DNA from: a bacterium
Lineage (GTDB): Bacteria; Patescibacteriota; Dojkabacteria; JAKAPS01; JAJZLI01
DNA: 64,000 nt
Reading direction: 5' to 3'
Assembly: GCA_027371855.1 (NCBI GenBank)
Contig: DAHXLB010000032.1
Span: 10,844 to 74,843, forward strand
In this document: one piece after another, positions 29,278 to 64,000 of the stretch
Layout of the letters: each line of letters starts with the position of its first letter
How positions within the stretch are numbered: position 1 is the stretch's first letter
Program-made: the position numbers and the translations under genes
Notes under the pieces: model-generated
The model's database searches: none
Seen by the model: only the letters and a program-made list of their open reading frames with translations
Told to the model about the DNA's origin: nothing

Positions 29278-29544
29278 ATGTATTATAATAGTTGTGGATA
29301 CAATTTTATGGGACCAATAGAAGGTATTTTTATAGCCCTTGGGTGGGTTATTTTTGCTATTTTTATAATACTCATTTTTAGATATATAGGGAGAGGTTCA
29401 ACGCATCGTCACGGTCATATGTTCGACCATGGTATCTCAGATTCATCTGACCCAAAGGATATCCTAAAAACAAGATATGCCAAAGGTGAGGTAACAAAAG
29501 ATGAATACTTAGATATTTTAAAAACACTAGAATCAAAGTCTTAA
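29278..29544 (+). CDS. small membrane protein with C-terminal SHOCT domain
   Basis: TM helix followed by ILKTRYAKGEVTKDEYLDILKTL, a SHOCT-like motif. Confidence 0.5.
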   Translation: MYYNSCGYNFMGPIEGIFIALGWVIFAIFIILIFRYIGRGSTHRHGHMFDHGISDSSDPKDILKTRYAKGEVTKDEYLDILKTLESKS

Positions 29545-29570
29545 GGATTAAGATTCTAGATAAATAGAAA

Positions 29571-29882
29571 ATGCCAGTAAGAAACTTGAATGATAAAATA
29601 ATTTTTGGTGTATGTTCTGGATTATCAGAATATTACAGTATCGATGTTGTAGTTTTAAGGCTTATATTTATTGTAGGATTCCTATTTATGGGGATTACAA
29701 TAATTGTTTATCTGGTATTAGCTTTAATTATGCCTACAGAAATACAACATACCGTGGGAGACAAAAAATCTGATGATATATCATCTAAGGATAGTGCACT
29801 TAAAATATTAAAAGAGAGGTTGGCTCGTGGGGAGATAACAAAAGATGAATTTGAAGATATGAAAAAGACTTTAGGGTATTAG
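29571..29882 (+). CDS. PspC-domain membrane protein with C-terminal SHOCT domain
   Basis: DKIIFGVCSGLSEYYSIDVVVLRLIFIV...LIMP matches the PspC domain. The C-terminal ILKERLARGEITKDEFEDMKKTL is a SHOCT motif. Confidence 0.6.
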   Translation: MPVRNLNDKIIFGVCSGLSEYYSIDVVVLRLIFIVGFLFMGITIIVYLVLALIMPTEIQHTVGDKKSDDISSKDSALKILKERLARGEITKDEFEDMKKTLGY

Positions 29883-29889
29883 GTGAAAT

Positions 29890-31299: not shown

Positions 31300-31885
31300 A
31301 TGTTAATGATGTTTTAATACCTGTTGTTCCAACATTAGTTTCAGTTAAAGTTATAAACACAGTAGGTGAGATTCCAGTATTTGCTTCCTCAATAAATTGT
31401 AGGTTAAATGTGTAGACATTAGAAGAGGACAAAGCTAATGCTGGTTGATCATTTATTTGAGAATAAATAACTCCATTTTGTGAATAGAAGCTTATGGTAT
31501 CTCCGCTTGAATCTGTTTGTACTGTAAGTTCAGAAGAGGTAACATTCCCAGAATTTGGAAGTGTTACCTGGTATCCATACTCAATATTTTGTGTCATTTC
31601 TTTCATTGCTATTCTTACTGTATCATTTGCATTAGCTGTAGTTGTTATAGTATTTTGGAATATAGATAGATTGAATAGTATTATTGTAACAGTAACTAAT
31701 ATTATTGATAGAAGTGTTATATATAACAATAGCTCTATTAGAGTATCACCTTGGGTCCAGATCCCTTCATTATTTTTTAATTGTTTTTTTAGATATGAAA
31801 TCTTCATGTTAAAATTGTTGCCAATCTGTAAAATATTCACTTTCTTGGTAAGTATATGTTTGTCCCAAAGAGGTGAAAGATACAA
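31271..31885 (-). CDS. prepilin-type minor pilin
   Basis: G|DTLIELLLYITLLSIILVTV has the class III signal with Glu at +5. Confidence 0.6.
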   Translation of the reverse strand: MYLSPLWDKHILTKKVNILQIGNNFNMKISYLKKQLKNNEGIWTQGDTLIELLLYITLLSIILVTVTIILFNLSIFQNTITTTANANDTVRIAMKEMTQNIEYGYQVTLPNSGNVTSSELTVQTDSSGDTISFYSQNGVIYSQINDQPALALSSSNVYTFNLQFIEEANTGISPTVFITLTETNVGTTGIKTSLTYETAATQRK

Positions 31886-32303
31886 CTGCTGTTGCCTCTC
31901 TAGTATTAGGATCTTGTGGATATGTACTTGAAGAAGAAAGTGTATTTGTATTTACTCTATAAGCATAAGATACTGTTACATATTCTGTATATATACCGTA
32001 ACTTGTTTGTCCTGGGTATAAAGCCCATCCTTGTGTTTGTAACGGAGGATTATTTGTTGCCGTATATGCAAGGTAATATTGTCCTGGGATAAAGTCAGAC
32101 CAAGATTGATTCTGTAACGCATAAAGGTTTTCTAATTCTAGTGATAAAAGATATTTTGCCTCTAGTCTCTGATTTGATAATTCTATTGGTTTTTCTATCG
32201 GTGTTATTAAAAATAATGATGAAGTTAACAGTATGCCTATTATTGTTATAGATATTAGAAGTTCAATTAGAAGTTGTCCAGAATTGTTAGTATATTGCCC
32301 CAT
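31809..32303 (-). CDS. prepilin-type minor pilin
   Basis: SG|QLLIELLISITIIGILL has the class III signal with Glu at +5. Confidence 0.6.
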   Translation of the reverse strand: MGQYTNNSGQLLIELLISITIIGILLTSSLFLITPIEKPIELSNQRLEAKYLLSLELENLYALQNQSWSDFIPGQYYLAYTATNNPPLQTQGWALYPGQTSYGIYTEYVTVSYAYRVNTNTLSSSSTYPQDPNTREATAVVSFTSLGQTYTYQESEYFTDWQQF

Positions 32304-32769
32304 TTTGATTTATGCTAATTATTTTAGAAGAGAATGAATTTCCGAGGGTAAAACTTATTCCAGAATTTTGCAACATACCATTTTGTGCACTAAACACAAT
32401 TGGGTTGTTATTTGAGGGTAAAATATTGGTTATATTAAGACTGAATGGAAGATAATATACTTGGTTTGAGGGATTAGAGCTTGAATATAAAGACCCAGGG
32501 AACAGTGTTACTGTAGTTTGAGTAAAGTAAACTCCATATGTAGAAACACCGCCAGTATTATTCATTGCATCATCTTGGGATTGTTTTACTATTGAAGAGA
32601 TGGTTTGTGTTGCATTATTGGTATTAGTATCTGCAAGTAGTACAAAATAAGCAATGCTTGAGGCTGTTGCAAGAATAGCAGTTATAGTTATGGTTATGAG
32701 CAGTTCAATTAGAGTGAATCCAAGGGATCCGGATCCCTTTAAGTTTAGTTTGTTTGAGGTAGTTTTCAT
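32287..32769 (-). CDS. prepilin-type minor pilin
   Basis: SLG|FTLIELLITITITAILA has the class III signal with Glu at +5. Confidence 0.65.
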   Translation of the reverse strand: MKTTSNKLNLKGSGSLGFTLIELLITITITAILATASSIAYFVLLADTNTNNATQTISSIVKQSQDDAMNNTGGVSTYGVYFTQTTVTLFPGSLYSSSNPSNQVYYLPFSLNITNILPSNNNPIVFSAQNGMLQNSGISFTLGNSFSSKIISINQNGAIY

Positions 32770-32791
32770 TGGTTTTAAATTATAAATATTA

Positions 32792-34039
32792 CTAACCGCC
32801 TGATCCAGATCCGCTTGATTGAGTGGTTCCTGTTGTAGAATTAATAGATCCTGTCATTTGATAGATAGGCATTATTACCGATAAGGCTATAAGAAGGACT
32901 CCACCTCCCATAACAAGAAGCATTATAGGTTCTATTATTGTAGACAGATTGGAAAGTGTATCGTCTATTTGTTCTTGATAAAATTGAGCGACAGACAGTA
33001 GCATCTCTGATGTATTCCCAGTTTTATCTCCAACCGCTATCATTCTTACTGAAATCTTTGGAAACAAAAAAGGATATTTATCTAGAGTCTCAGCAATACC
33101 CCCTCCTTTTTCTACTTCTCTAGATAATTCATCAATGGCTGATTTGTAGGCTTCATTTTCAATTGTATCCCCGGTTATTTTTATAGCTTGATTTATTTGA
33201 ATTCCACTCTTAATTAAATTTCCAAGGGTTCTTGTAAAGCTCGTGATATTGATTTTTTTTATTATTAACCCAAATATAGGTATACGTAAAGATATTTTAT
33301 TCCAATACAATTTGAATTTTTTTAGTTTTAATAATCTTCTAAATGTAATTATTAGTGCTATAACAATAACTACAACTTCAGCTCCATAATGAGTTAGGAC
33401 ATAGGATATTCCAAGCATGATTTGTGTTGGTGGGGGTAAAGTCTCTTTTGATTGTTTAAACATTGCTCCAAGCTGTGGAAATATGAATATAATTAATCCA
33501 ATACTTACAATTATCATGACTGAGAATATTACAGTAGGGTATAACATAGCACCCTTAACTTTTTTGTGTAATTCATAGGCTTTTTGAACTTGGTCCCTAA
33601 TTAGTGCTGCATTTTCAGGTAAGGTTCCACTAGTTTCTCCGATTTCTATCATCTTCACAGCTAATGGAGAGAAGACATTTTCATATTTTGACATTCCTTT
33701 GGACAGAGAATTCCCAGTTTCTATTTCATATTTTAGATCTCCAATTATTTTTTTAAAATTTGGAGATTGTGCATCGTCAACAAGTACAGTAAGTGTATCT
33801 GATAATGATAATCCTGCGGTTATCATTTTTTCAAGATGATCAAAAAACACTAGTTTTTCAAGTATGCTGATTTTCTTTTTACTTATTTTGCCTTTTTGAT
33901 CTTTTGGATCAGAAATATCTAGTACGGTTTTCCCCCCATCCTTAAGTATGTTTATAGCTTCTTCTCTTGAGGAGGCCGTTATTATGGCATTCTCAATAGT
34001 TCCATCTTCCTTTGTTGCTTCATATTTAAATTCGGACAT
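32792..34039 (-). CDS. pilC: type IV pilus assembly platform protein PilC (GspF family)
   Basis: 415 aa with two cytoplasmic GspF-like repeats and three TM segments. It heads the minor-pilin operon. Confidence 0.8.
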   Translation of the reverse strand: MSEFKYEATKEDGTIENAIITASSREEAINILKDGGKTVLDISDPKDQKGKISKKKISILEKLVFFDHLEKMITAGLSLSDTLTVLVDDAQSPNFKKIIGDLKYEIETGNSLSKGMSKYENVFSPLAVKMIEIGETSGTLPENAALIRDQVQKAYELHKKVKGAMLYPTVIFSVMIIVSIGLIIFIFPQLGAMFKQSKETLPPPTQIMLGISYVLTHYGAEVVVIVIALIITFRRLLKLKKFKLYWNKISLRIPIFGLIIKKINITSFTRTLGNLIKSGIQINQAIKITGDTIENEAYKSAIDELSREVEKGGGIAETLDKYPFLFPKISVRMIAVGDKTGNTSEMLLSVAQFYQEQIDDTLSNLSTIIEPIMLLVMGGGVLLIALSVIMPIYQMTGSINSTTGTTQSSGSGSGG

Positions 34040-37756: not shown

Positions 37757-40700
37757 ATGAATATAAAAAAATTTTTTTCATATATAAATATACAAAGTAC
37801 TCTAAAAAAAAGGGTTTCAATATCAAAATGGGAAATGAATTTTATTATATTGGTAGCTATTATATTAGGAATGGTTTTTGGAGTATATATAACTTTATCA
37901 GGTTTGCTACCAAAAGCTTTTGCTACATCTCAGGGGGCTGTAACATATAATACTTCAAGTCAATTCCAAACAGGGACTTTATCTCAAACACAGATTGTAG
38001 GATCTGGAACTCCTTCAAGTATTGAACTTGCTGGTGGAAGTGCAGGTCCAGATGGAACACAGTATTATATCCCAATAACAATAAACAATACTGGAAATTC
38101 GAATACACTTACCAACTATCAAGTACTAGTTACTGTTAACACGGCATCCCTTATAACAGCTGGAAAATTACAATCTGACTGTAGAGATCTCAGGTTCAGA
38201 GATTCCAATCAGACAACAAATCTTACTAATTATTGGATTGAGAATTGTAACAATACTGGAACAAAAATATGGGTACAAGTTCCTTCCATCCCGGCATCTT
38301 CTACAAAAACTATTTATATGTATTATGGGGGACCATCAACAGACGTAGCTCAATCTTCAATAACCAATACTTTTTTGGGTGAAATATCGGGATTAATAGG
38401 TGATTGGCCTATGAATGAATCTTCTGGGCAGATAATAAATGATTATTCTGGTAACTCAAATACAGGGACTGCGTATGGTACAACCGTAGTTACAGGTAAA
38501 TTTGGGAATGCGAGAAGCCTTAATGGTGGTAGTAGTGACTATATTGAAGCGCCTATAGGGACCTATTTTGGAGGGAATAATCCTCTTACTGCCAGTGCAT
38601 GGGTCGATGTTACTTCAACTACTAATGGCCCAATAGTTGGAATTACAGCTTCTGACCCTCCTGGTAATTGGAATATGCCATTTTTAAGCATTAATGGCAC
38701 TACAATCTATGGGTGGCTTTGGCAGGTTAACGGAAATATACCTTTGAGTTACACTACAACAACTGGTTGGCATTATTTAACTATTACATATACCCCAAGT
38801 GGCGGTGGAGAGGAAATTTTATATGTGGACGGAGTTGCTGTTGCCAGTGGAACAGGGCAATATTCGCCATCGGGTATCTATGATTATTGGTCAACATATA
38901 TTCCTGGGGCAAGGCCAAATGGGGTTAATGCATATTTAACTGGAATAATTGAAGATGTAAGTGTTTACTCACAAGTACTTTCTCAGACACAAATATCTAA
39001 TATTTATAACAATTATGGCTATGCCACTTTAAATTATCCGGGATATATACTTGTTCGTCAATACTCTTCTCCAGAACCTACGATAACCCTTGGAAGTGAG
39101 ACACCAACGCTAGCTTCCTCCGGATCATGGACTTCCCCTTTGGGGAGCAGTGTAATAAATACGATATGGAATGGGGGATGGGGAGATGGCTCTACTTCAA
39201 CTTCGACTGCATTTTCTGCTACAGTAGGATCTGTAGCAAGTGGTCAAACAATAACATTCCAGATAAGATCAGCTTCTACAGTATCTGCATTATCTTCAGC
39301 TTCATATTACACGCTTGGTACGGTATCTTCCGGAACCACGTTCTCAGCCACAATGTCACAATTAGATTCTTTAGGTGTACCTGCAGATCAGTATGTACAA
39401 GTTAATATAGAATTTTCTCAAAATACGGGAGTGACTCCAACGCTATCCAGCTTTACTGTCTATTATGCTCAAGATAATACTCCTCCTTCCCCGAATGCAT
39501 CGGCTATAGTTATGTCTACGTCTCCAAGCGGTGGATACAATATAGCATCTGGAGGTTGGGATAATTCTGCAGGACCATACTTTTCATGGACACCAGGAGC
39601 AGATTCTCAATCTGGGATGAAAGGATATTGTCTGTATCTTGGGACTGATCCTAGTGGGAATCCATCTATTACAGAGGGACTTTTAGGGACTTCTCCTTTA
39701 TCAACTACAGGCAATACTTGTCAATTCATAATATCTAGTTCATATATAGATCTCTCTTCGAGTGCATATCAAGGGTCTACCTGGTTAACATCATCTAACT
39801 CTCCATACTATTTTAGTATATCGGCAATAGATAACAACAATAATGTAGACACTACTCCAGTAACATTTAGTTTTTACTACGAGGGAACTCCTCCAGTAAA
39901 TGTTTCATATATTTCATGTGCAGGAGGAAATTTTTCTAATATTCAAAATATGACATTCTCTTGGCCTACGACCGGGTCTAATGCATCCTCAGATTCGTAC
40001 TCTGGAGTATTGGGGTGGCAGTATCAGATAAACTCATCTACGGGGGCTTGGGAGGGTACAACTACAGATAGTATAATAGGTGGTATTCCATATATACCTA
40101 CAAGTCAATCATCGATGAGCCTTCCAACTTCAGATAGTTCTAATATTGTTATTGGATCCAATGTCATATATTTTAGAACCGTGAGTATTGCTGGAGGTGT
40201 GTCAACACCATCTACGTATCGTACGTGTAGTATAAATTATGGGGGTGCTGCACCAACATTTACTACTAACATTGGTGTTACAATAAACCCTACAACTAGT
40301 ACAACAAACTACTTTTCTTTATCATGGTCAGGGGCTACTGCAGCAACGGGAAAGAGTGTTGCTGGTTACTACTATATGATAAATACTGTGCCTCCTCAGA
40401 CCTTAGCTACCATGCAGAGCAACCCTGGGGAGTATATAAATAACGGAAATAGCACCAATGTATCCTCTACATCTTTTGCAAATGTGAGAAGAGGAGTAAA
40501 TACAGTATATGTTGTGGCAATAGATAATTCTTCGCCACCCGACTATTCTCCTTCAAACTATATATCTGGTACTTTTACACTAAATTCAACTAATCCTGAT
40601 CCGGTTGGTAATCTAATAGCTACAGATTCATCAATTAAAGCTCAGCAAAAGTGGAATGTCACTCTTACTTGGATTGCTCCAGTGTATCAGGGAGCTGGTA

Positions 40701-42121
40701 ATCTACAATATCTAATTTACAGGTCTTCTAATAATGTGGATTTTACAGAAGTGGGATCGACCTTGGGTTTATCATATGTTGATAATACGCCTCAATCAGC
40801 GTTGTATTATTACTATGTGATTGCCGAGGATGGAGCGGGAGCATTCTCATCAGATTCTTACACAGTATCAATAACCCCAACAGGGAGATACACGACTCCT
40901 CCAATATTAGAAGCAGGACCAAATGTGTCAAATCTAACTGATCAATCTGCAACAATTTCTTGGTCTACCAATAGAGATGGTGATTCCAAGATACAATATG
41001 GCCTGTCTCCTACAAATTTTTATCAAACAGAACCTTCGGTTCCTACTCAAGTAACTTATCATAGTATAACCCTAACAAGTCTATCTCCCGGTACTACATA
41101 CTATTATAAAGCTTTATGGACAGATACTGATGGAAACACTGGTACTTCCTATGAATCTTCATTTACCACTAGTCCTCCGCCTCAGGTTAGTAATGTTCAT
41201 GTCACAAATGTATCTTTATATAGTGGGTATGTTACGTTCAGTATATCAAATGCCGTACAAGCAACTATTGAATACGGACCTACAACTTCATATGGAGGTA
41301 CTGTGAGTGTTGCAACATCTCCTACAACCAGTACATATTCTGTACCTATAACAAATTTATCATCCGGAACTTCATATAACTATAGAATAGTTATGCAGGA
41401 TTCAAGTGGAAATGTATTCTACAGTGATAATTATGCAGACTTAGTGACATTGCCGGCCCCAAAGATAACCAATGTTAGCTTGGCACAGGTTTCAGATACA
41501 GTGATTCCAACAGTAATGGTAACTTGGAATTCAAATACTCCAGTATCATCAATTATTACATATTGGCCATCAGGAAATACTTCTCAAACTCAAAATAAAA
41601 TTAATATTACATTGCAAAGTGGAGCTCATCAGATGTTTTTACAGGGCTTAAATTCAAAAACAACATACAATCTAATTGTCAAAGGTGTTGATAAGATGGG
41701 GAATCAAGCATCTTCATATACTCAAACATTTACCACAGCTACAAATACTATGCCGCCACTAATAACGGGTTTAAATGTTCAAGGAGAAGTTTCGCAGTCA
41801 TCATCATCCAATGACCAACTTGTTGTTTCGTGGACTACAGACACGCCATCGACATCTCAAGTAGAGTTTGGGGTTGGTGCTGGATCATCCTATTCTCAAA
41901 AGACTCAAGAATCTACTCGTTCAGTATTAAACCACTTAGTTGTAATATCAAATCTTATTCCTTCTCAGGTTTACCATCTAAAAGCTATATCTGTTGATCA
42001 ATCTGGTAATAGAGGATACTCTATAGATACTGTAACAATTACACCTAAGGCAGCTCAAAGTGCCTTGACACTTGTTGTATCAAATCTGGGTCAGGCCTTC
42101 GGATTTTTAGGAGGATTATAA
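37757..42121 (+). CDS. giant surface protein with N-terminal anchor, DUF2341-like domain, LamG-like jellyroll and multiple FN3-like beta-sandwich repeats
   Basis: 1454 aa with an N-terminal TM/signal. NYQVLVTVN...CRDLRFRDSNQT...YWIENCNNTGTKIWVQVPSIPASSTKTIYMYYGG matches the DUF2341 pattern. WPMNESSGQIINDYSGNSNTG...GKFGNARSLNGGS is LamG-like. The C-terminal two thirds consist of many ~90-aa S/T-rich repeats with the W...Y...Y signature of FN3 domains. Confidence 0.7.
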   Translation: MNIKKFFSYINIQSTLKKRVSISKWEMNFIILVAIILGMVFGVYITLSGLLPKAFATSQGAVTYNTSSQFQTGTLSQTQIVGSGTPSSIELAGGSAGPDGTQYYIPITINNTGNSNTLTNYQVLVTVNTASLITAGKLQSDCRDLRFRDSNQTTNLTNYWIENCNNTGTKIWVQVPSIPASSTKTIYMYYGGPSTDVAQSSITNTFLGEISGLIGDWPMNESSGQIINDYSGNSNTGTAYGTTVVTGKFGNARSLNGGSSDYIEAPIGTYFGGNNPLTASAWVDVTSTTNGPIVGITASDPPGNWNMPFLSINGTTIYGWLWQVNGNIPLSYTTTTGWHYLTITYTPSGGGEEILYVDGVAVASGTGQYSPSGIYDYWSTYIPGARPNGVNAYLTGIIEDVSVYSQVLSQTQISNIYNNYGYATLNYPGYILVRQYSSPEPTITLGSETPTLASSGSWTSPLGSSVINTIWNGGWGDGSTSTSTAFSATVGSVASGQTITFQIRSASTVSALSSASYYTLGTVSSGTTFSATMSQLDSLGVPADQYVQVNIEFSQNTGVTPTLSSFTVYYAQDNTPPSPNASAIVMSTSPSGGYNIASGGWDNSAGPYFSWTPGADSQSGMKGYCLYLGTDPSGNPSITEGLLGTSPLSTTGNTCQFIISSSYIDLSSSAYQGSTWLTSSNSPYYFSISAIDNNNNVDTTPVTFSFYYEGTPPVNVSYISCAGGNFSNIQNMTFSWPTTGSNASSDSYSGVLGWQYQINSSTGAWEGTTTDSIIGGIPYIPTSQSSMSLPTSDSSNIVIGSNVIYFRTVSIAGGVSTPSTYRTCSINYGGAAPTFTTNIGVTINPTTSTTNYFSLSWSGATAATGKSVAGYYYMINTVPPQTLATMQSNPGEYINNGNSTNVSSTSFANVRRGVNTVYVVAIDNSSPPDYSPSNYISGTFTLNSTNPDPVGNLIATDSSIKAQQKWNVTLTWIAPVYQGAGNLQYLIYRSSNNVDFTEVGSTLGLSYVDNTPQSALYYYYVIAEDGAGAFSSDSYTVSITPTGRYTTPPILEAGPNVSNLTDQSATISWSTNRDGDSKIQYGLSPTNFYQTEPSVPTQVTYHSITLTSLSPGTTYYYKALWTDTDGNTGTSYESSFTTSPPPQVSNVHVTNVSLYSGYVTFSISNAVQATIEYGPTTSYGGTVSVATSPTTSTYSVPITNLSSGTSYNYRIVMQDSSGNVFYSDNYADLVTLPAPKITNVSLAQVSDTVIPTVMVTWNSNTPVSSIITYWPSGNTSQTQNKINITLQSGAHQMFLQGLNSKTTYNLIVKGVDKMGNQASSYTQTFTTATNTMPPLITGLNVQGEVSQSSSSNDQLVVSWTTDTPSTSQVEFGVGAGSSYSQKTQESTRSVLNHLVVISNLIPSQVYHLKAISVDQSGNRGYSIDTVTITPKAAQSALTLVVSNLGQAFGFLGGL

Positions 42122-44689
42122 ATGCAAAACAAAGAGTATATTATACGTGTTAAAAATATATCTAAAAGTTTTAATGTTTTAGAACAGGAGGTTTTTGTTT
42201 TAAAGAATATAAATTTTGAACTTTTTAAAGGTGAATTTGCAGTTATATTTGGCCCATCCGGATGTGGAAAATCTACTTTACTACATACGGTATTAGGATT
42301 AGAGGCCCCTACTTTTGGAGAAATTATTTTCCTTGATCAAAATCTATATAGTTTTGATTCTGAAGATAAAATATCAGAATTTAGGAAAATGAATATAGGC
42401 GTGGTTTACCAACAAGCAAATTGGATACAGTCATTGACCGTATTAGACAATATTATATTCCCCCTCCTACTCCTTGGTATTGATAAGGAAGATGCTTTAA
42501 AAAGAGGGATGGAAATTCTAAAAGATGTCCATATGGAAGAGTGGGCAAATTATAAACCAACAGAATTGTCTTCTGGACAACAGCAAAAAATAGCCTTAGT
42601 TAGAGCAATAATTACAGACCCAGAGGTTATTATCGCAGATGAGCCAACTGGAAATCTTGACTTTAAGGCAGGAGAAGAACTAATGGAACTTATGGGACTT
42701 CTAAATAAAAAAGGTAAGACCATAATTATGGTTACTCACGATTTAGAGTATGCAAAGTATGCAGGAGTCTCGATACATATGTTTGATGGAAATATAATTG
42801 GAATGTCCAGAGGAAGGGATCAATCGGAGGTAACAAAGAGTGTTAAATCAAAGAAAGGTACCGTTGATATAGAGAGTGATAAAAATGATAAATCTTCAAA
42901 AACAGAGGAAATATTTAACTTTCAAGGTTTGGATAAATCATATAGTGTTCAAAAGGAGGAATATAACTCCGTCATACTTAAGCCTATTATGGGACTTCTT
43001 ACTATGCTACTAAAAATAATAGTTATTCCTCTAAATCTTATCATAGGATTTATAAACATCATATTGAAGATTAAAAAATCTAAAACCAGACTTAATCATA
43101 TACGGGTAGATATAAGGAAATTTATTTATATCAATACTCAAATGACGCTCTCTCTTTTACTACTTTTCTTTTATATTATTGGAATTGGTATTAAAAAAAT
43201 ACTATCATTGAAATTTTTCCCTAGGTTCATTTCTTCTCCAATATACAATGTACTATCAAATATTTATAAGAAAACTACAAATATTTTTGATAGAAATAAA
43301 AATGGGGAAATTAGTAAACTTTCTCTAATATCTCTGTCAATGAGCAATTTGAAAGCAAAGAAGACAAGAACTTATGTAACTATTGGGGGAATGGTAGTTG
43401 GTATTGGAGCCATAGTATTTCTTGTGTCTTTAGGGTATGGACTTCAGAGGCTTGTTATATCGAGGGTTGCTAAATTAAATCAATTAAAACAAGCAAATGT
43501 AACAACTCAGGTTGGAGGAAAAGAGCAGATCAATGATAAATCTATATATGATTTTAAAGCGATTCCTAATGTTACAGAAGTACTTCCTATAATATCTGTT
43601 GTTGGAGGAGTTAACTATAAAGGGTCAATTTCAAATATGGCAGTCTATGGAGTTACAAGTAATTATTTTAAAGCATCAAATATCCAACTTCTAGATGGTA
43701 AGTTTTTTTTGAGTACTCAGACAGTAAGAAATGTTAATCCTATTGTTATAACTACAAAACCAAGTACCCCTTTAGGAACTAATATACAGAATTCACCTAT
43801 AATTAACAATAAATCATCTCTACCTTTTGTTAATATCCCATCCCTTGCGGCGCCTATTCAAGGACAGGTAACCTCTAAAGTTATCATTCCTAAAAGTTTG
43901 CCTAAAGATATAGTAGTTAATCAGGCAATGCTTAGAGTGTTAGGGATCACAAATACTAAATCAGCTATAGGGGAAAAGATACAATCTTATTTTATTGCTA
44001 CCCCTAATCTTTTAACGAACTCTAATCAAAAATTAGAATCCACTCCAACTTTGTATACAATTGTTGGGGTAATCTCTGGGAATACCACTCCTCAGATTTA
44101 TGTACCTTTTATTAATCTTAGATCTATGGGCATAACTAATTATTCTGAAGCTATAGTAATAGTATCAAATACACAGGTTTTGGCTAAAGTTAGAAAACAG
44201 ATTGAATCTGCAGGTTTTACTACAAGTTCTGTGGCAGATACTGTATCTCAAATCAACGGTGTTTTTGGGACAGCACAGATTATTCTCGCATTATTTGGAT
44301 TTATTGCTCTTATGGTAGCAGCATTAGGAATGTTTAATACTTTGACAATATCACTTTTGGAGAGAACCAGAGAAGTGGGATTAATGAAGGCTATGGGAAT
44401 TCAATCTTCAGATATTAAGAATTTATTTCTTCTTGAATCAATGATTATTGCAGTATTTGGAGGAATATTAGGTCTTTTGGCAGGATTCCTTGCAGGAAAA
44501 CTCTTAGGACTTGTTCTTTCTATTATAGCTATCAATAAGGGACTAGGATATATAGATGTTTCATATATCCCTATTACCTTTATATTAGTTATTGTAATAA
44601 TATCTGTTATTATTGGTCTTATTACGGGTATTTATCCAGCTAGAAGAGCTACTAAAATATCTGCATTGAATGCGTTAAGATATGAGTAA
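42122..44689 (+). CDS. MacB-type ABC transporter, fused ATP-binding and FtsX-like permease
   Basis: Walker A GPSGCGKSTLLH, signature LSSGQQQKIALVRAI and Walker B IIADEPTGNLD. The C-terminal FtsX/MacB permease has four TM helices (GMFNTLTISLLERTREVGLMKAMG). The start codon directly abuts the stop of the giant surface protein gene. Confidence 0.85.
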   Translation: MQNKEYIIRVKNISKSFNVLEQEVFVLKNINFELFKGEFAVIFGPSGCGKSTLLHTVLGLEAPTFGEIIFLDQNLYSFDSEDKISEFRKMNIGVVYQQANWIQSLTVLDNIIFPLLLLGIDKEDALKRGMEILKDVHMEEWANYKPTELSSGQQQKIALVRAIITDPEVIIADEPTGNLDFKAGEELMELMGLLNKKGKTIIMVTHDLEYAKYAGVSIHMFDGNIIGMSRGRDQSEVTKSVKSKKGTVDIESDKNDKSSKTEEIFNFQGLDKSYSVQKEEYNSVILKPIMGLLTMLLKIIVIPLNLIIGFINIILKIKKSKTRLNHIRVDIRKFIYINTQMTLSLLLLFFYIIGIGIKKILSLKFFPRFISSPIYNVLSNIYKKTTNIFDRNKNGEISKLSLISLSMSNLKAKKTRTYVTIGGMVVGIGAIVFLVSLGYGLQRLVISRVAKLNQLKQANVTTQVGGKEQINDKSIYDFKAIPNVTEVLPIISVVGGVNYKGSISNMAVYGVTSNYFKASNIQLLDGKFFLSTQTVRNVNPIVITTKPSTPLGTNIQNSPIINNKSSLPFVNIPSLAAPIQGQVTSKVIIPKSLPKDIVVNQAMLRVLGITNTKSAIGEKIQSYFIATPNLLTNSNQKLESTPTLYTIVGVISGNTTPQIYVPFINLRSMGITNYSEAIVIVSNTQVLAKVRKQIESAGFTTSSVADTVSQINGVFGTAQIILALFGFIALMVAALGMFNTLTISLLERTREVGLMKAMGIQSSDIKNLFLLESMIIAVFGGILGLLAGFLAGKLLGLVLSIIAINKGLGYIDVSYIPITFILVIVIISVIIGLITGIYPARRATKISALNALRYE

Positions 44690-45590: not shown

Positions 45591-47258
45591 TTATTCTTTT
45601 ACGACTCTTAATACTTCTTCAAGAGAGGTTATTCCCTCTTCAGCCTTTCTCATCCCATCTTCTATCATTAAACTCATCCCACTTTCTTGTGCTGCTTTTT
45701 GTATCACATTTGCGTTTTCCCTTCTTGCTATGAGAGTCTTTATATCATCCGTTACTTCTAAAACCTCATATATGCCAATCCTTCCCTTATATCCGTTTGT
45801 ACAATACTCACAACCTTGAGGTTTAAAAAACTTAGCTTGTGTGATTTTTTTAGTAACACCTTTTTTAGTATATTGCTCTTCTAATATACCTATTAGTTTT
45901 TTATCTAAAGAATATTCCAGTTTACAATTATTACAGAGTTTTCTAACTAATCTTTGAGCTATTATAACATTTAAGGTGGAAGATACTAAAAATGATTCAA
46001 TATGCATATCTATAAGTCTTGGTATAGCCCCAGATGAATCATTAGTGTGAAGTGTTGATAAAACTAAATGTCCTGTCATTGCTGCATTTATTGCAATATC
46101 TGCAGTCTCAGTATCTCTAATCTCTCCTACCATTATTACATCAGGATCTTGCCTTAAAAATGATCGTAACCCAGATGCAAAAGTAAGCCCTATATTTGCA
46201 TTTACCTGGGTTTGGTTTACCCTTGGCATAGAATATTCAATAGGGTCTTCAATAGTATCTAAGTTCACTTCTGGTGTATTTAATTCTGATAATACTGTAT
46301 ATAATGTTGTACTTTTCCCTGACCCAGTTGGTCCTGTTACAAGAATCATTCCAACAGTTCTTTTTATTGCATCTTCAATAACCGACAGATCTCTCCCGGT
46401 CATACCTAAACTCTCTAAGCTATATTCTTTTGCATTATCTTCAAGTAATCTCATAACTAATACTTCTCCAGAATATACAGGCATGATAGAGACTCTAAAA
46501 GATATATCTCTATCACTTATTGTTGATTTGAATCTTCCATCTTGAGGGAGTCTGTGTTCATCAATTTTTAAATTTGCTAGAATTTTTATCCTTGCAAGTA
46601 CTGCTTGGTGTACCGCAAGGGGATAAGTAGCCTGATCATGAAGTATACCATCTATTCTATACCTTACTATTGCCTCAGTTTCCATTGGTTCTATATGAAT
46701 ATCAGATGCTCCCATGGTTTTTGCATACTCAAGTATGGTATCAGTAATATTTATAATGGGTAGAGCTTCAGTCTCTCCTGACTTGACGTTTTTAGATTCT
46801 TTGGCATTCTTTTCAATTATATCTTTAAGCTCTTCTTTTATGGATGTTTTGTAGAACTTAAGTCCTTCATAAAAAGATTTTTCTGTTATAAAATATGGGT
46901 CTATGTTATATCCAGTACCTTTTTTTATAAACTCGATGGTATTTATATCTCTTGGATTTGTCATCCCTATTTTTAAAGTTGAAGTTGTTTTGTCAAATGC
47001 TACTATCTTTTTTTCTATTGCTGTTTTTTCAGGAATTATCTTTACAACCGCCGGGTCTATGGTTTTATGTGCTAGGGAGATATAAGGAATACTAAGTTCA
47101 GTCTCTACTATCTCGCCCAATTTATCTTCCGTGATAGTATTTTGAGCTATCAATAAATCCTCAACAGAAGTATTTAACTGTTTTGCCTTTTCTTCTAATT
47201 CTGTATAAAGGCTTTCTGATATATAATTTTTAGATATTAATATATTTTTTAGATTCAT
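45591..47258 (-). CDS. pilB: type IV pilus assembly ATPase PilB (GspE family)
   Basis: Walker A VTGPTGSGKSTTLYTVL, with Asp box, His box and a tetracysteine motif (CNNCK...CEYCTNGYKGRIGIYEVL). It has an N-terminal GSPII-like domain. Confidence 0.9.
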   Translation of the reverse strand: MNLKNILISKNYISESLYTELEEKAKQLNTSVEDLLIAQNTITEDKLGEIVETELSIPYISLAHKTIDPAVVKIIPEKTAIEKKIVAFDKTTSTLKIGMTNPRDINTIEFIKKGTGYNIDPYFITEKSFYEGLKFYKTSIKEELKDIIEKNAKESKNVKSGETEALPIINITDTILEYAKTMGASDIHIEPMETEAIVRYRIDGILHDQATYPLAVHQAVLARIKILANLKIDEHRLPQDGRFKSTISDRDISFRVSIMPVYSGEVLVMRLLEDNAKEYSLESLGMTGRDLSVIEDAIKRTVGMILVTGPTGSGKSTTLYTVLSELNTPEVNLDTIEDPIEYSMPRVNQTQVNANIGLTFASGLRSFLRQDPDVIMVGEIRDTETADIAINAAMTGHLVLSTLHTNDSSGAIPRLIDMHIESFLVSSTLNVIIAQRLVRKLCNNCKLEYSLDKKLIGILEEQYTKKGVTKKITQAKFFKPQGCEYCTNGYKGRIGIYEVLEVTDDIKTLIARRENANVIQKAAQESGMSLMIEDGMRKAEEGITSLEEVLRVVKE

Positions 47259-51076: not shown

Positions 51077-52852
51077 ATGAACGAGAAACAACATTCAATT
51101 CCTCAAAATATAATGAGTATACAATTTAAGCTTATAGGGAATATGTCTATGAGGCAATTTCTTATAATCGCCACTCCTTTATTTATTGGTTTTATAATGT
51201 ATGTTATAAAAATAAGTAATTATATAACGGTACCGTTTACTGCCATATTTCTTCTTTCAGCTCTTGCTATAGCATTTGTTCCTCTTGATGACAGACCTTT
51301 AGATGAATGGATTACAAACTTTATAGTCGCAATAAGAAACCCTACACAAAGAATTTGGAAAAAAAATGAAGTAGTCCCTAATATTCTTAAGATCGACAAG
51401 CCTAGTGTTAGTAAAACTAATAATAAAAAAGATATTGCAATGTTTCTATATCAGTCTCCCTTTGATAATTCACTAAACTCAGTTAATGAAGATGCTGTAG
51501 ATAACGCCCTTGATGTAAAGGAGAAGACTTTAATTGCAAATATTGATAAGATAAATAGTATGATATCTAGTGGATCTACAAGTGCCTCTGTGCCTACTAA
51601 AACTTTGGGGAGTGATTTGTTTCAGCAAGAATCTCATTCGAGTGGAGTAGGAAGCTCCGTGCCTTCTCCTTCACCTATATCTGGAAATTCAGCACAAAAT
51701 GGTGATTTTAAAGAAACAACTCCTATAGAGGATCTCGTAAGTCCAATTATTCCAGAAAGTCCTACACCTAAAACTTCAAATGACCGGGATAAAGATAGTG
51801 AAGATAGTAAAATACCTCAATATAATCCTTTTAACATAAGCAATATCACTCCAGTCTCTGCAGCAGAAGAAGTCAAAGCTGCTGGCAATCCAAATATTAG
51901 AGAAGATTTTCTAAATACAGGGATTCAACAAGAAGCATCTGTCCCCGGTCAGATGGAGAATCCTTTTCAAGATATTATTAATCAAATTAATCCTCAAAAT
52001 ACATCATCTTCCAAGGTAATATCACAAGAACAAACTACAGAGTCTGAGACTATGCCATCAGGGGATACTCCGGAAATAAAAGCACCAAGCGTAGTCTTGA
52101 ATGGTGGGACTAAGGATGACAATGATTCTCAAAGTCCTGATTTATCTCAAAATACATCAAGTAACACTCAAGTTGAGCCACCTCCCGAATTCCAAACAGG
52201 TACAACTGCTAACTCTGAGAATAATTCTAGAGAAGAAGAGCTTAATAAAATATTAACAAGGATACAATCATTAGAAGAAGAAAACCAAAAGCTTAAATCT
52301 GAACTTGCAGGGCAATCTGTCTCAACAGAACAAGCTGAATCAAAAGTTTCAAATTTGTCTCCAAAAGAAACTCCTGTACAAACTCAAGAACCAGTTCAAG
52401 AACCAGTTCAAGAACAAATTGCTGAGTCAACACAAACCCAAACTGTAATACAAAAAGGAGATAATAATCCTGCTCAAGAAAATCCCAATCAAGCTAGCCA
52501 AGACCAATCCATTAGTCTTACTAGGCAGCAGTTAATTGATCACCTTCCAGAATTTACAAAAGTCCCTAATGTTGTAGCAGGGGTAGTTATTACTGGTGAT
52601 GGGAAGATATTAAATAATGCTATTGTTATAATCAAAGATACAAATCAAAAACCAGTTAGGGCCGTAAAAACAAATCAACTAGGACAATTTTTTACAAGAA
52701 CTCCCTTACCATCTGGAAGATATGATATCGAAGTTGATGCAGCAGGGTATAAATTTAATACTGCAACAATAGAACTTAATAATCAAGTAATACCTCCTTT
52801 TATGTTTATACCTACATCTGAGGGGGAGCAAAAAAATATTAGCGGAATGTAA
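51077..52852 (+). CDS. PrgI/VirB3-like two-TM N-domain fused to a long S/T/P/Q-rich linker and a C-terminal CarboxypepD_reg-like beta-sandwich domain
   Basis: The N-terminus IQFKLIGNMSMRQFLIIATPLFIGFIMYVI...VPLDDRPLDEWITNFIVAIRNPTQRIW parallels the PrgI family (F.GLT.RQF...P.. and FW..P..R.Y). The C-terminus GVVITGDGKILNNAIVIIKDTNQKPVRAVKTNQLGQFFTRTPLPSGRYDIEVDAAGYKF matches a carboxypeptidase-regulatory-like domain. A PVQE x3 repeat lies in the linker. Confidence 0.5.
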   Translation: MNEKQHSIPQNIMSIQFKLIGNMSMRQFLIIATPLFIGFIMYVIKISNYITVPFTAIFLLSALAIAFVPLDDRPLDEWITNFIVAIRNPTQRIWKKNEVVPNILKIDKPSVSKTNNKKDIAMFLYQSPFDNSLNSVNEDAVDNALDVKEKTLIANIDKINSMISSGSTSASVPTKTLGSDLFQQESHSSGVGSSVPSPSPISGNSAQNGDFKETTPIEDLVSPIIPESPTPKTSNDRDKDSEDSKIPQYNPFNISNITPVSAAEEVKAAGNPNIREDFLNTGIQQEASVPGQMENPFQDIINQINPQNTSSSKVISQEQTTESETMPSGDTPEIKAPSVVLNGGTKDDNDSQSPDLSQNTSSNTQVEPPPEFQTGTTANSENNSREEELNKILTRIQSLEEENQKLKSELAGQSVSTEQAESKVSNLSPKETPVQTQEPVQEPVQEQIAESTQTQTVIQKGDNNPAQENPNQASQDQSISLTRQQLIDHLPEFTKVPNVVAGVVITGDGKILNNAIVIIKDTNQKPVRAVKTNQLGQFFTRTPLPSGRYDIEVDAAGYKFNTATIELNNQVIPPFMFIPTSEGEQKNISGM

Positions 52853-52855
52853 ATT

Positions 52856-53539: not shown

Positions 53540-53556
53540 TTATTATAGATGAATAT

Positions 53557-62860: not shown

Positions 62861-64000
62861 ATGAGTGCTGCCTGCAAAACATCAAGTAAAAAGAAAAAAT
62901 CATTAGTAGAAAAATATGCAAAGTACTTTGTTTTAATATTGATAGCTATAATATCAATAGCTATCTTTGTTTTTATAAATAATGGTAAACATATATTTGC
63001 ATCTGGCCCAAGTGGTTTTTTAAAGGATCTAGTATATACAATAAACAATTCCGGAAATACAAATACACTTACTAATTATCAGGTAGAGGTAATCGTGAAT
63101 ACACAAGTTCTAATATCGGCTGGCCAGATGCAATCAGGATGTCAAGATATACTGTTTACTACTACATCTGGTACTAATATGTCATATTGGACAGAAGGAG
63201 GATGTAATACTACCACAACTCAAATATGGGTACTGATTCCATCTATTCCTGCATCTTCCTCTTTGAATTTTGATATGTGGTATGACAATTCTACTGCCAT
63301 AGCTGCAAGTGATGGTAGTACGACATTTAACTATTTTGATCAAGGAAATTCTTTATCTAATTGGACTACTGTAGGATCAGCTGGACAAAATACAACTACA
63401 GGGAACCCTGCTCCATCATATTATGCAAATTCCTCGAATGGTGATTATATGTATAACAATGTTGGGTTAACTCCTGGAGAAGTACTGACATTTAATATAA
63501 ATTCATCTGGGTTAGGGGATTTATTTTTTCTTACAAATTCAGCTGGTGCTGGACAGATGTATAGATCTGATACCAGGGGTGCGGGTTATTGGAGTGGTTT
63601 TGCGGCAACCAGTTCTTGGACAGCTTGGAGTGGGCCAGGAAGTGGGTTTAATTCAGTTAACAATACCTGGTATAAGTTTCAGATAGTAGTGACATCGTCA
63701 ACTTCTGCATCACTGTACTATAAACAAACTATAGGAGACTCTCCTAGTGTGAATGGAACATTAGTTGGAACGTATACCATAACAGATAATGGAGGATATA
63801 TAGGTCTTATAGGAGATGCTTTAGGATCATCATACACAACATACATAGATAATATTATTACAAGACAGTACTCTAATCCTGAACCTACTGTTGCATTGCA
63901 GGATTTAGCACCAAATTCTCCAACAACGCTTACTCAACAAAAAACCGAGGTTGGGCTTAATACCGGGACTTATTATTATGAAGTATCTGCACTAACCGCT
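62861..64000 (+). CDS. paralogue of the giant DUF2341/LamG surface protein, 3' end truncated by window end. It is absent from the ORF track.
   Basis: Manual translation from the ATG at 62861: MSAACKTSSKKKKSLVEKYAKYFVLILIAIISIAIFVFINNGKHIFASGPSGFLKDLVYTINNSGNTNTLTNYQVEVIVNTQVLISAGQMQSGCQDILFTT...TQIWVLIPSIPASSSLNFDMWYDNS... The frame stays open to position 64000. It carries the same DUF2341-like and LamG-like blocks as 37757..42121, including RQYSNPEPTV matching RQYSSPEPTI. Confidence 0.6.
   Translation, partial: MSAACKTSSKKKKSLVEKYAKYFVLILIAIISIAIFVFINNGKHIFASGPSGFLKDLVYTINNSGNTNTLTNYQVEVIVNTQVLISAGQMQSGCQDILFTTTSGTNMSYWTEGGCNTTTTQIWVLIPSIPASSSLNFDMWYDNSTAIAASDGSTTFNYFDQGNSLSNWTTVGSAGQNTTTGNPAPSYYANSSNGDYMYNNVGLTPGEVLTFNINSSGLGDLFFLTNSAGAGQMYRSDTRGAGYWSGFAATSSWTAWSGPGSGFNSVNNTWYKFQIVVTSSTSASLYYKQTIGDSPSVNGTLVGTYTITDNGGYIGLIGDALGSSYTTYIDNIITRQYSNPEPTVALQDLAPNSPTTLTQQKTEVGLNTGTYYYEVSALTA

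What the first reader, a model, noticed from the sequence alone, without database searches (positions are those of the whole stretch)
37757..44689. 1454-aa DUF2341/LamG/FN3 surface protein translationally coupled to a MacB-type ABC ATPase-permease fusion, with a paralogue at the window edge
The giant protein's TAA stop is immediately followed by the ATG of the ABC gene (42119-42124), indicating translational coupling. MacB/FtsX-type transporters act as mechanotransducers or exporters for extracytoplasmic partners (FtsEX with PG hydrolases, MacAB with toxins). Coupling to a huge adhesin-like protein suggests a dedicated surface-protein handling or signalling pair. A second DUF2341/LamG gene starts at 62861, next to dnaJ and the sortase, so this is a multi-copy family.
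Basis: partly seen in the sequence, partly recalled or inferred. Interest (0 to 1): 0.55.

Follow-up and report, generated by a model that had tools for sequence, protein, structure and literature searches.

The report
Giant surface protein paired with ABC motor
In an ultra-small (Patescibacteria/CPR) bacterium, a 1454-residue surface protein with a swappable binding "head" is always encoded directly in front of a MacB-type ABC ATPase; this undescribed two-gene module is probably how these host-dependent bacteria mount and power an attachment fibre.

Summary
A 1454-aa DUF2341/LamG/FN3 protein (37757-42121) ends in TAA directly followed by the ATG of an 855-aa ABC ATPase-permease fusion (42122-44689). 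The AlphaFold model of the fusion matches MacB.

The pairing is not chance. Ten of ten relatives of the ABC gene with visible upstream DNA have such a giant gene directly upstream. About 72 of 74 metagenomic loci found through the giant's C-terminus have the ABC as the next gene. Of 80 generic MacB/LolD loci from other phyla, 2 do.

The conserved partner is not DUF2341/LamG. It is a ~1000-aa beta-sandwich body that ends in an FN3 domain plus an amphipathic helix. The N-terminal head is exchangeable: DUF2341/LamG, Kelch, glycine-rich, or a C-type-lectin-like domain that diversity-generating retroelements hypermutate in relatives. The truncated paralogue at 62861 carries the head that sits on the ABC-coupled giant of a close relative.

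Best reading, inferred and not shown: a type VII ABC mechanotransducer docks the giant's C-terminal module and does ATP-driven work on it. The binding head then projects outward. I found no prior description. It is a new variant of a known kind, of moderate to high interest.

The parts
37757..42121 (+). Giant surface-protein gene (1454 aa)
   Evidence: ORF and translation. Pfam DUF2341, Laminin_G_3 and FN3/Pur_ac_phosph_N. Orthologues sit upstream of the ABC gene in 10 of 10 loci.
37757..37927 (+). Extended N-terminal signal/anchor (aa 1-57): basic/aromatic motif (SKWEMN), hydrophobic helix, AFA|TS
   Evidence: Read from the translation. The same layout recurs in most relatives as ...PRFHFSRFQFNL + TM + [VI]FA. 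Cleavage is inferred, not tested.
37928..39046 (+). Variable head (aa 58-430): DUF2341 (38177-38371) plus Laminin_G_3 (38528-38998)
   Evidence: The head aligns in only 22 of 40 relatives, at ~30% identity. Other head types are found in relatives. The head differs from that of the L002 orthologue although the body is 80% identical.
39047..41698 (+). Conserved body (aa 431-1314): ~600 aa of unannotated beta-rich repeats, then FN3/Pur_ac_phosph_N repeats
   Evidence: Aligned in 40 of 40 relatives at 47-51% median identity. No Pfam hit for aa 601-1048. Four FN3-type stretches in aa 1049-1454, the last of which lies in the next part.
41699..42118 (+). Most conserved part (aa 1315-1454): last FN3 domain plus C-terminal amphipathic helix (aa 1436-1453, 42062-42115)
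   Evidence: 61% median identity to 40 relatives. Alignment A2 has 68% mean column identity. AF2: FN3 domains with pLDDT above 94, terminal helix with pLDDT 64-72. Tail hydrophobicity and hydrophobic moment.
42110..42124 (+). Junction: GGAGG (42110-42114) inside the Gly-Gly codons of the tail, TAA (42119-42121), ATG (42122-42124)
   Evidence: In 27 of 47 tightly coupled relatives, GGAG/GAGG lies in the last 20 nt of the giant gene.
42122..44689 (+). ABC ATPase-permease fusion (855 aa), MacB fold
42122..42811 (+). Nucleotide-binding domain (aa 1-230)
   Evidence: ABC_tran E 2.8e-30. Walker A G44-K50-T52, Q97, signature L149-S150-G152-Q154-Q155, Walker B D173-E174 and H206 are invariant in 93 homologues.
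42812..43360 (+). Long family-specific linker (aa 231-413) with helices 286-317, 331-362, 368-389 and 399-412
   Evidence: AF2 secondary structure. The hydrophobic segments are not conserved in number across the family.
43361..44656 (+). FtsX-type membrane domain: TM1 (aa 414-449), extracytoplasmic domain (aa 450-703, disordered insert 546-581), TM2-TM4 (aa 704-845)
   Evidence: Pfam MacB_PCD and FtsX. AF2. Foldseek TM-score 0.82 to MacB 5nik_J, normalised by target length.
62861..64000 (+). Second DUF2341 gene (first 379 aa; runs off the window); alternative head cassette
   Evidence: DUF2341 E 2.1e-15. Aa 49-346 are 64.5% identical to the head of the ABC-coupled giant of L002.

Best explanation
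The two genes are one conserved module of Patescibacteria. The giant protein is exported by Sec through an extended N-terminal signal. It has three parts: an exchangeable N-terminal ligand-binding head (here DUF2341 plus LamG), a conserved ~1000-aa stalk of beta-sandwich domains, and a highly conserved C-terminal FN3 domain ending in an amphipathic helix.

The downstream protein is a type VII (MacB-fold) ABC ATPase-permease. Transporters of this fold do not move substrates through the membrane. They convert cytoplasmic ATP hydrolysis into movement of their extracytoplasmic domain.

Most likely the ABC dimer is the membrane dock for the giant's C-terminal module, so that the stalk holds the head away from the cell. 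The layout is like a sortase-anchored adhesin, but the anchor is non-covalent and motorised. The ATPase cycle then does mechanical work on that module: seating it, tensioning it or releasing it.

Shown: gene linkage, tight coupling, fold, intact ATPase motifs, head variability, and hypermutation of heads in relatives. Inferred: physical contact, which end is the anchor, signal cleavage, and what ATP hydrolysis achieves.
For: Linkage in both directions:
- All 10 ABC homologues (74% to 38% identity) with visible upstream DNA have the giant gene directly upstream.
- About 72 of 74 loci found through the C-terminal module have the ABC as the next gene.
- Only 2 of 80 generic MacB/LolD loci carry the module.
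- In the flanks, no other gene is universal.
- The pair moved as a unit relative to its neighbours between the window and L002.

Coupling: 47 of 69 non-redundant loci overlap or have a gap of 10 nt or less. This pattern is typical of subunits made in fixed ratio.

The last 140 aa of the giant are its most conserved part: 61% median identity, against ~40-47% for the ABC protein itself and ~30% or no alignment for the head.

The AF2 terminal helix is confidently helical but poorly placed (pLDDT 64-72), as expected for a segment that needs a partner.

The ABC has the MacB fold, a 250-aa outside domain and invariant catalytic residues. MacB-type proteins work on partners outside the membrane: FtsEX-EnvC, LolCDE-LolA, MacAB-TolC, YbbAP-TesA (PMC5985334, PMC12646458).

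The head behaves as a ligand-binding tip. Head types differ between loci. Heads are swapped between close relatives. In L087, L103, L113, L115 and L166 a DGR template matches a stretch in the giant's N-terminal part, and most or all mismatches fall at template adenines.
Against: No direct test of contact was possible, because no multimer prediction is available.

Exceptions exist. In L091 the giant is followed by a convergent gene. In L147 it is followed by 1.6 kb without ORFs.

Fifteen of 69 loci have a small ORF inserted between the two genes.

L172 has two tandem giants, both with the C-terminal module, in front of one ABC. That fits a client/handler relation as well as a fixed complex.

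Part of the tail's conservation (FLGG) may be nucleotide-level, because its Gly codons form the ABC gene's Shine-Dalgarno sequence.

The N-terminal signal/anchor is also conserved. If it is not cleaved, the head would sit next to the membrane and the polarity argument fails.
Confidence: 0.4

Rival explanations
1. Transient client rather than stable partner. The ABC works like LolCDE or YbbAP. It grips a hydrophobic segment of the giant in the groove between its membrane helices and uses ATP to extract it from the outer leaflet. The segment would be the C-terminal helix, or the uncleaved N-terminal anchor. This releases or hands over the protein to the wall or S-layer, or sheds it.
For: The C-terminal helix is moderately hydrophobic (mean H up to 0.52), ends the protein, and in many relatives is followed by KK or R, like a minimal anchor. 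The N-terminal anchor is also conserved. L172 has two giants for one ABC, which suits a handler with several clients. LolCDE and YbbAP extract hydrophobic moieties from the membrane (PMC5985334, PMC12646458).
Against: Tight translational coupling in most loci suggests stoichiometric production, which a catalytic extractor would not need. The whole last FN3 domain is strongly conserved, not only the helix. No downstream acceptor (LolA-like) gene is conserved.
Confidence: 0.25
2. Functionally linked but not in contact. The ABC is an efflux or detoxification pump, or exports a small factor used at the contact site that the adhesin creates. The two genes are simply co-transcribed.
For: CPR macB-like genes are usually annotated as multidrug or antimicrobial-peptide transporters (PMC12455944). 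The nearest NCBIfam and PDB matches are MacB.
Against: The score is far below the MacB equivalog cut-off (234 against 966). No adaptor or second component is conserved. Other MacB-type genes, including the Magasanikbacteria (CPR) locus L076, lack the giant. The specific, phylum-wide, overlapping linkage to one protein's conserved C-terminus is hard to explain by co-regulation alone.
Confidence: 0.12
3. Sensor pair. Ligand binding at the head is transmitted through the ABC to the cytoplasm, as in BceAB-type sensing, and feeds second-messenger or two-component signalling.
For: A GGDEF gene lies upstream in the window and next to the pair in L002. A response-regulator gene follows the ABC in L087.
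Against: These neighbours are not conserved: GGDEF appears in 1 of 87 other loci, and no signalling gene recurs. No kinase is adjacent.
Confidence: 0.08
4. Type IV pilus accessory. The DUF2341 giant is a PilY1-like pilus-tip adhesin, and the ABC is incidental.
For: DUF2341 has been proposed as a pilus-associated adhesin domain (PMC4858521, PMC11809585). In the window the pair lies between pilC (32792-34039) and pilB (45591-47258).
Against: Pilus genes flank the pair only in the closest relative, 1 of 87 loci. DUF2341 is present in only 12 of 35 heads. The giant has no pilin-type N-terminus.
Confidence: 0.05

Closest known systems
Type VII (MacB-superfamily) ABC systems with an extracytoplasmic partner: FtsEX-EnvC/PcsB/RipC, LolCDE-LolA, MacAB-TolC, YbbAP-TesA
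   Same: N-terminal ATPase, four-helix FtsX-type membrane domain and large outside domain between TM1 and TM2. Intact catalytic motifs. A dedicated extracytoplasmic protein encoded alongside. The expected mode of action is mechanotransmission, not transmembrane transport (PMC5985334, PMC12646458).
   Different: The partner is a 1000-6000-aa modular surface protein with a swappable or hypermutated head. It is not a hydrolase activator, chaperone, adaptor or lipase. There is a 180-aa helical linker between the ATPase and TM1. No MacA/TolC, EnvC-like coiled coil or LolA is present. Scores are below the NCBIfam cut-offs for MacB, LolD and FtsE.
Giant RTX/BIg adhesins encoded next to their type 1 secretion ABC transporter (LapA-LapBCE, SiiE-SiiCDF) [from general knowledge]
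   Same: A huge repetitive adhesin with a conserved C-terminal element, encoded beside a dedicated ABC ATPase.
   Different: Those ABCs are HlyB-type exporters that thread the unfolded adhesin through the membrane, and the adhesin has no Sec signal. Here the ABC has the MacB fold, which offers no transmembrane path (PMC5985334), and the giant has an N-terminal signal.
Sortase-anchored Gram-positive adhesins (LPXTG/MSCRAMM) [from general knowledge]
   Same: The same polarity: N-terminal signal, distal binding domain, repeat stalk, anchoring element at the C-terminus. A sortase gene is in the window (60769-61566).
   Different: The giant has no LPXTG-like motif. Its C-terminus is an FN3 domain plus a helix and is linked to an ABC gene, not to a sortase.
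DGR-diversified surface proteins with C-type-lectin/FGE-sulfatase folds
   Same: In relatives the giant's head carries the variable repeat of an adjacent DGR, with adenine-specific changes. A reverse transcriptase gene is adjacent in 16 of 87 loci.
   Different: The window has no reverse transcriptase or template repeat. The variable region lies in the N-terminal part of the protein, not at the C-terminus as is usual. Published surveys found no membrane link for CPR targets (PMC8144416).
DUF2341 proteins of type IV pilus-like loci (PilY1-like, Methanococcus Epd locus)
   Same: The DUF2341 domain, and pilus genes nearby in the window (PMC4858521).
   Different: The link to pilus genes is not conserved. 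The link to the ABC is.

Membership tests
Type VII ABC / MacB superfamily (fold level) | ABC ATPase with intact Walker A/B, Q-loop, signature and H-loop | tested here: met
   ABC_tran E 2.8e-30. K50, Q97, S150-G152-Q154, D173-E174 and H206 are invariant in 93 homologues.
Type VII ABC / MacB superfamily (fold level) | Four-helix FtsX-type membrane domain with a large extracytoplasmic domain between TM1 and TM2 | tested here: met
   MacB_PCD and FtsX Pfam hits. AF2 model pLDDT 82.6. Foldseek matches to MacB: 5gko E 1.4e-42; 5nik_J TM-score 0.82 normalised by target length.
MacB proper (MacAB-TolC pump) | Scores as MacB equivalog (NCBIfam NF007826) | tested here: not met
   234 bits against a cut-off of 966.
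MacB proper (MacAB-TolC pump) | Adjacent MacA-type (HlyD-family) adaptor | tested here: not met
   No such domain in the window ORFs scanned. No conserved third gene in 88 loci.
FtsEX | FtsE equivalog score; separate FtsE and FtsX | tested here: not met
   TIGR02673 scores 175.6 against a cut-off of 264.85. The two parts are fused here. They are split only in L007 and L039.
FtsEX | Partner is a coiled-coil regulator of peptidoglycan hydrolases, or a hydrolase (EnvC, PcsB, CwlO, RipC) | tested here: not met
   The partner's domains are DUF2341, LamG and FN3. No LytM, CHAP or NlpC domain was found.
LolCDE | LolD equivalog score; lipoprotein client and LolA acceptor | tested here: not met
   TIGR02211 scores 195.2 against a cut-off of 307.75. 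The giant's AFA|TS signal end has no lipobox cysteine. No LolA-like gene is conserved.
Type 1 secretion giant adhesin system | HlyB-type ABC (ABC_membrane domain); adhesin without a Sec signal | tested here: not met
   The ABC is FtsX/MacB type. The giant has an N-terminal hydrophobic signal.
Sortase-anchored LPXTG protein | C-terminal LPXTG-like motif, hydrophobic stretch and basic tail | tested here: not met
   No LP.[TSA]G motif anywhere in the giant.
Type IV pilus-associated DUF2341 adhesin | Conserved placement in pilus loci | tested here: not met
   pilB and pilC flank the pair in the window and in L002 only, 1 of 87 other loci.
DGR target protein | Adjacent reverse transcriptase and a template/variable repeat pair with adenine-specific differences | tested here: not met
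   No reverse transcriptase in the window. The feature is met in the relatives L087, L103, L113, L115 and L166.
Giant-ABC module proposed here | C-terminal FN3 plus amphipathic helix module directly upstream of an NBD + MacB_PCD + FtsX gene | tested here: met
   Window. Ten of 10 and about 72 of 74 related loci.
Giant-ABC module proposed here | Physical complex between the C-terminal module and the ABC's outside or membrane domain | not testable with these tools
   Only single-chain AF2 without coordinates or PAE was available.

The most novel reading that the evidence does not exclude
Patescibacteria possess a previously unrecognised surface organelle. A type VII ABC motor in the membrane carries a long FN3 fibre. 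The fibre's tip is a plug-in recognition domain, exchanged by recombination between paralogues or hypermutated by DGRs. ATP hydrolysis actively controls attachment to host cells by extending, tensioning or releasing the fibre. This would be the first ATP-powered, ABC-anchored adhesin. It would also supply the missing membrane link for the many 'orphan' DGR targets of CPR bacteria.
Probability: 0.25. Interest if true: 0.85.

Novelty: new variant of a known kind. Interest (0 to 1): 0.62.

Why it matters
Patescibacteria are a large fraction of bacterial diversity. All cultivated members live attached to other microbes, yet how they recognise and hold their hosts is largely unknown.

This is a phylum-wide, tightly coupled module. 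It joins a variable, sometimes DGR-hypermutated, binding head to an ATP-driven membrane machine, which makes it a concrete and testable candidate for that function.

It would add a fifth kind of partner to the type VII ABC mechanotransducers. The known ones are a hydrolase activator, a lipoprotein chaperone, an efflux duct and a lipase.

It would also explain why published surveys found no membrane anchor on CPR DGR targets (PMC8144416).

If it is only co-transcription, it still corrects a routine annotation. These 'macB, antimicrobial peptide transport' genes are not MacB equivalents.

Tried and rejected
1. The genome-contig scan with the ABC alignment used generic ABC peptide patterns. It returned mostly unrelated MacB/LolD genes from other phyla, which is useless for synteny. 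I re-used it as a negative control.
2. The search for homologous proteins with the C-terminal module returned mainly contig-end fragments. It gave taxon names only (Beckwithbacteria, WWE3, 'Patescibacteria group').
3. The representative-library search with A6 is inflated by multi-FN3 proteins (2376 clusters at E<=1e-30). Only about 57 of the top 150 end with the module at their C-terminus, so no reliable family size could be obtained.
4. I rejected the idea of a conserved extra transmembrane hairpin in the ABC linker. The window clade has two hydrophobic segments, but other members have one weak segment or none.
5. I rejected the type IV pilus and GGDEF associations as general features.
6. The promoter/terminator scan found nothing above the shuffled expectation.
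7. Foldseek of the C-terminal model gave only generic tandem FN3 matches.
8. NCBIfam has no model for the giant.
9. Literature searches for DUF2341, Patescibacteria+MacB, CPR+FtsX+FN3, DGR+CPR+ABC and Southlakia+ABC found no description of the pair.
10. I considered a fused-chain AF2 trick to model the complex and dropped it. The tool returns no coordinates or PAE, so an interface could not be judged.

Full report
**1. What is there**

The window is a chromosomal piece of a Patescibacteria (CPR) bacterium.
- GC content is ~32%.
- dnaA and dnaN lie at 5985-8943.
- The best ABC homologue, at 87% identity, is labelled 'Patescibacteria group bacterium'.

ORF 37757-42121 encodes 1454 aa, and ORF 42122-44689 encodes 855 aa in the same frame. 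TAA (42119-42121) abuts ATG (42122-42124). A GGAGG lies 7 nt upstream of that ATG. No plus-strand terminator-like site lies between the genes. The next gene downstream is convergent.

**2. Anatomy of the giant protein**

It starts with a long N-terminal signal/anchor...SKWEMN-FIILVAIILGMVFGVYITLSGLL-PKAFA|TS. Then come:
- DUF2341 at aa 141-205.
- Laminin_G_3 at aa 258-414. This is seen only when the segment is scanned alone, at E 5.9e-16.
- About 600 aa without any Pfam match.
- Four FN3/Pur_ac_phosph_N-type domains.

AF2 of aa 1220-1454 gives two confident FN3 sandwiches (pLDDT above 94). It also gives a terminal helix at aa 1436-1453 that is helical but loosely placed (pLDDT 64-72). The tail is amphipathic and moderately hydrophobic. 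There is no LPXTG motif.

**3. Anatomy of the ABC protein**

- The N-terminal ATPase has every catalytic motif invariant in 93 homologues.
- A 180-aa helical linker follows.
- TM1 follows, then a ~250-aa outside domain (aa 450-703) and three more membrane helices.
- The model (pLDDT 82.6, pTM 0.73) matches MacB best: 5gko at E 1.4e-42, and 5nik_J at TM-score 0.82 normalised by target length.
- Sequence search agrees with this.
- It scores far below the NCBIfam cut-offs for MacB, LolD and FtsE.
- No HlyD-type adaptor is in the window.

It is therefore a member of the type VII/MacB fold, but not an orthologue of any characterised member.

**4. Is the pairing conserved?**

From the ABC side, I looked up ten homologues from 74% down to 38% identity. 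They include Doudnabacteria and several Microgenomates-type lineages.
- Every one with visible upstream DNA has a 940-1530-aa FN3-rich gene directly upstream.
- Two contigs begin at the ABC gene and say nothing.

From the giant side, the C-terminal 140 aa of eight such proteins are strikingly alike...SQVEFGxGxGxxYSQKTQE...HLVVISxLxPSxVYHxRAxSxDxxGN...DTVTITPKAxxxALxLVxSNLxxAFGFLGG.
- A metagenome scan with that alignment confirmed 328 sites, of which 80 loci were fetched.
- Of the loci with enough downstream DNA, about 72 of 74 have the ABC as the next plus-strand gene.
- The two exceptions are L091, where a convergent gene follows, and L147, where 1.6 kb without ORFs follows.

As a control, 80 loci with generic MacB/LolD-type genes from other phyla were checked. 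Only two (L007, L039) carry the module upstream. In those two the ATPase and the permease are separate genes.

Clustering all flanking ORFs shows that only the giant and the ABC are universal.

In 69 non-redundant loci the stop-to-start distances are as follows:

| Distance | Loci |
|---|---|
| Overlap | 15 |
| 0-10 nt | 32 |
| More than 200 nt | 15 |

In the loci with more than 200 nt, a small ORF has been inserted.

Between the window and L002 the pair changed position relative to the NDH-2 and AAA_14 genes but stayed together.

**5. What exactly is conserved?**

I compared 40 relatives to the window protein.

| Region of the giant | Relatives aligned | Median identity |
|---|---|---|
| Head, aa 58-445 | 22 of 40 | ~30% |
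| Middle, aa 446-1045 | 40 of 40 | 51% |
| FN3 array | 40 of 40 | 47% |
| Last 140 aa | 40 of 40 | 61% |

The last 140 aa are thus more conserved than the ABC protein itself, which is at ~40-47%.

Head types found in the first 700 aa of 35 giants:
- DUF2341: 12
- Laminin_G_3: 7
- FGE-sulfatase (C-type-lectin-like): 5
- Gly_rich_2: 3
- No hit in the rest

L007 has a Kelch propeller head.

Most N-termini share an extended signal...PRFHFSRFQFNL + TM + [VI]FA.

The conserved unit is therefore signal + body + C-terminal module + ABC. DUF2341/LamG is one of several plug-in heads.

**6. The heads behave as exchangeable, fast-evolving binding tips**

(a) The window giant and the L002 giant are 80.4% identical over aa 431-1454, but their heads do not align. 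Instead, the head of the truncated second gene at 62861 (aa 49-346) is 64.5% identical to the L002 giant's head. Both heads end at an RQYS.PEPT-like junction.

(b) A DGR reverse transcriptase lies next to the giant in 16 of 87 loci, and in 14 of the 41 loci of 9 kb or more. In L087, L103, L113, L115 and L166 a template repeat beside the reverse transcriptase matches a stretch in the giant's N-terminal part. Differences fall at template adenines in 17 of 20, 13 of 13, 12 of 12, 14 of 14 and 16 of 19 positions. The window itself has no reverse transcriptase.

Published DGR surveys state that CPR targets lack recognisable transmembrane or conserved domains (PMC8144416).

**7. Mechanism**

MacB-fold transporters have no transmembrane substrate path. 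They use ATP to move their outside domain and so act on an extracytoplasmic partner (PMC5985334, PMC12646458). Here the outside domain and the whole giant protein are on the same side of the membrane.

Five observations point to a specific protein-protein relation centred on the giant's C-terminus:
- gene order;
- overlap of the two genes;
- the extreme conservation of the last FN3 domain plus helix;
- the lack of any other conserved gene;
- the loosely placed terminal helix in the AF2 model.

The domain order is signal, head, stalk, C-terminal element. That is the order of wall-anchored adhesins, in which the C-terminus is the anchor and the head is distal. A hypermutated head makes sense only if it is exposed.

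I therefore favour a motorised dock (confidence 0.40). The main rival is transient LolCDE-like handling of the hydrophobic helix (0.25). L172 favours that rival somewhat, because two tandem giants, both with the module, precede one ABC.

Other readings score lower:
- efflux pump merely co-transcribed: 0.12;
- sensor pair: 0.08;
- pilus-tip adhesin: 0.05.

Pilus and GGDEF neighbours are confined to the window and its closest relative.

One caveat applies to the tail. Its final FLGG is encoded by TTAGGAGG, which is also the ABC gene's Shine-Dalgarno sequence. In 27 of 47 tightly coupled loci such a motif lies in the last 20 nt of the giant gene. Part of that conservation may therefore be at the nucleotide level. 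The helix upstream of FLGG and the FN3 domain are conserved regardless.

**8. Known or new?**

Searches of the held literature found DUF2341 discussed only in two ways: as a putative pilus-associated adhesin domain (PMC4858521), and as a feature of very large CPR proteins (PMC11809585). CPR macB-like genes are treated as drug or peptide transporters (PMC12455944). Nothing was found on this pair.

The system belongs to a known kind, a type VII ABC with an outside partner. The partner class and the modular or hypervariable design are new. I file it as a new variant of a known kind.

**9. Verdict**

- The function is inferred, not shown.
- Interest is 0.62.

Noticed in passing
L087:263-387 and 3500-3624; also L103, L113, L115, L166: Diversity-generating retroelements sit directly upstream of the giant gene in 16 of 87 related loci. 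Their template repeat matches a stretch in the giant's N-terminal part, and the mismatches fall almost only at template adenines. The window has no reverse transcriptase.
   Followed up: yes
window 62861-64000 versus L002:6084-6974: The head of the truncated second DUF2341 gene is 64.5% identical to the head of the ABC-coupled giant in a close relative. The two ABC-coupled giants share an 80%-identical body but have unalignable heads. This indicates head-cassette exchange at an RQYS.PEPT-like junction.
   Followed up: yes
window 42104-42121 and the last 20 nt of the giant gene in related loci: The Gly-Gly codons of the conserved tail (FLGG, TTAGGAGG) double as the Shine-Dalgarno sequence of the ABC gene. 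GGAG/GAGG is present in 27 of 47 tightly coupled loci.
   Followed up: partly
L095, L120, L121, L124, L152, L162 (gap between giant and ABC): A ~125-aa four-helix protein is inserted between the two genes in some loci. It matches 23S_rRNA_IVP at E 1e-35 and bAvd weakly. A truncated remnant is present in L111.
   Followed up: partly
L109, L134, L138, L141, L145, L150 (gap between giant and ABC): A ~160-180-aa protein with an N-terminal membrane helix and a small beta domain is inserted between the giant and the ABC in another subgroup. It has no Pfam family and might be a third component.
   Followed up: partly
L007:2787-12841 and L039:46-6625: In these versions of the module the ATPase and the FtsX-type permease are separate genes. 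The L007 giant (2398 aa) has a Kelch-propeller head. The L007 MAG is labelled Gammaproteobacteria, possibly through mis-binning (GC 38%).
   Followed up: partly
L172:1-8379: Two tandem giant genes (1413 and 1380 aa) precede a single ABC gene. Both have DUF2341 heads and the conserved C-terminal module.
   Followed up: partly
L147:5344-6979: The giant gene is followed by ~1.6 kb without any substantial ORF where the ABC gene is expected. This could be gene decay, an RNA element or an assembly problem.
   Followed up: no
window 51077-60766: A type IV secretion-like cluster is present: PrgI-like, two VirB4/TraG-type ATPases, TrbL/VirB6-like and TcpE-like genes. A sortase gene (60769-61566) follows. 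Similar T4SS genes lie near the pair in L001, L087 and L165.
   Followed up: no
window 27016-34039 and 45591-47258; also 4499-5770: Type IV pilus genes (a PilM-domain protein of 538 aa, PilX-like, pilins, PilC; PilB further on) bracket the region that holds the pair. Two more pilin-like genes lie near the origin.
   Followed up: partly
window 5985-8943: dnaA and dnaN are here, and the cumulative GC skew reaches its minimum at about 6 kb. The window spans the chromosomal replication origin.
   Followed up: no
window 1733-3325 and 11350-13449: Two large ORFs (530 and 699 aa) have no Pfam family at E<=1e-4.
   Followed up: no
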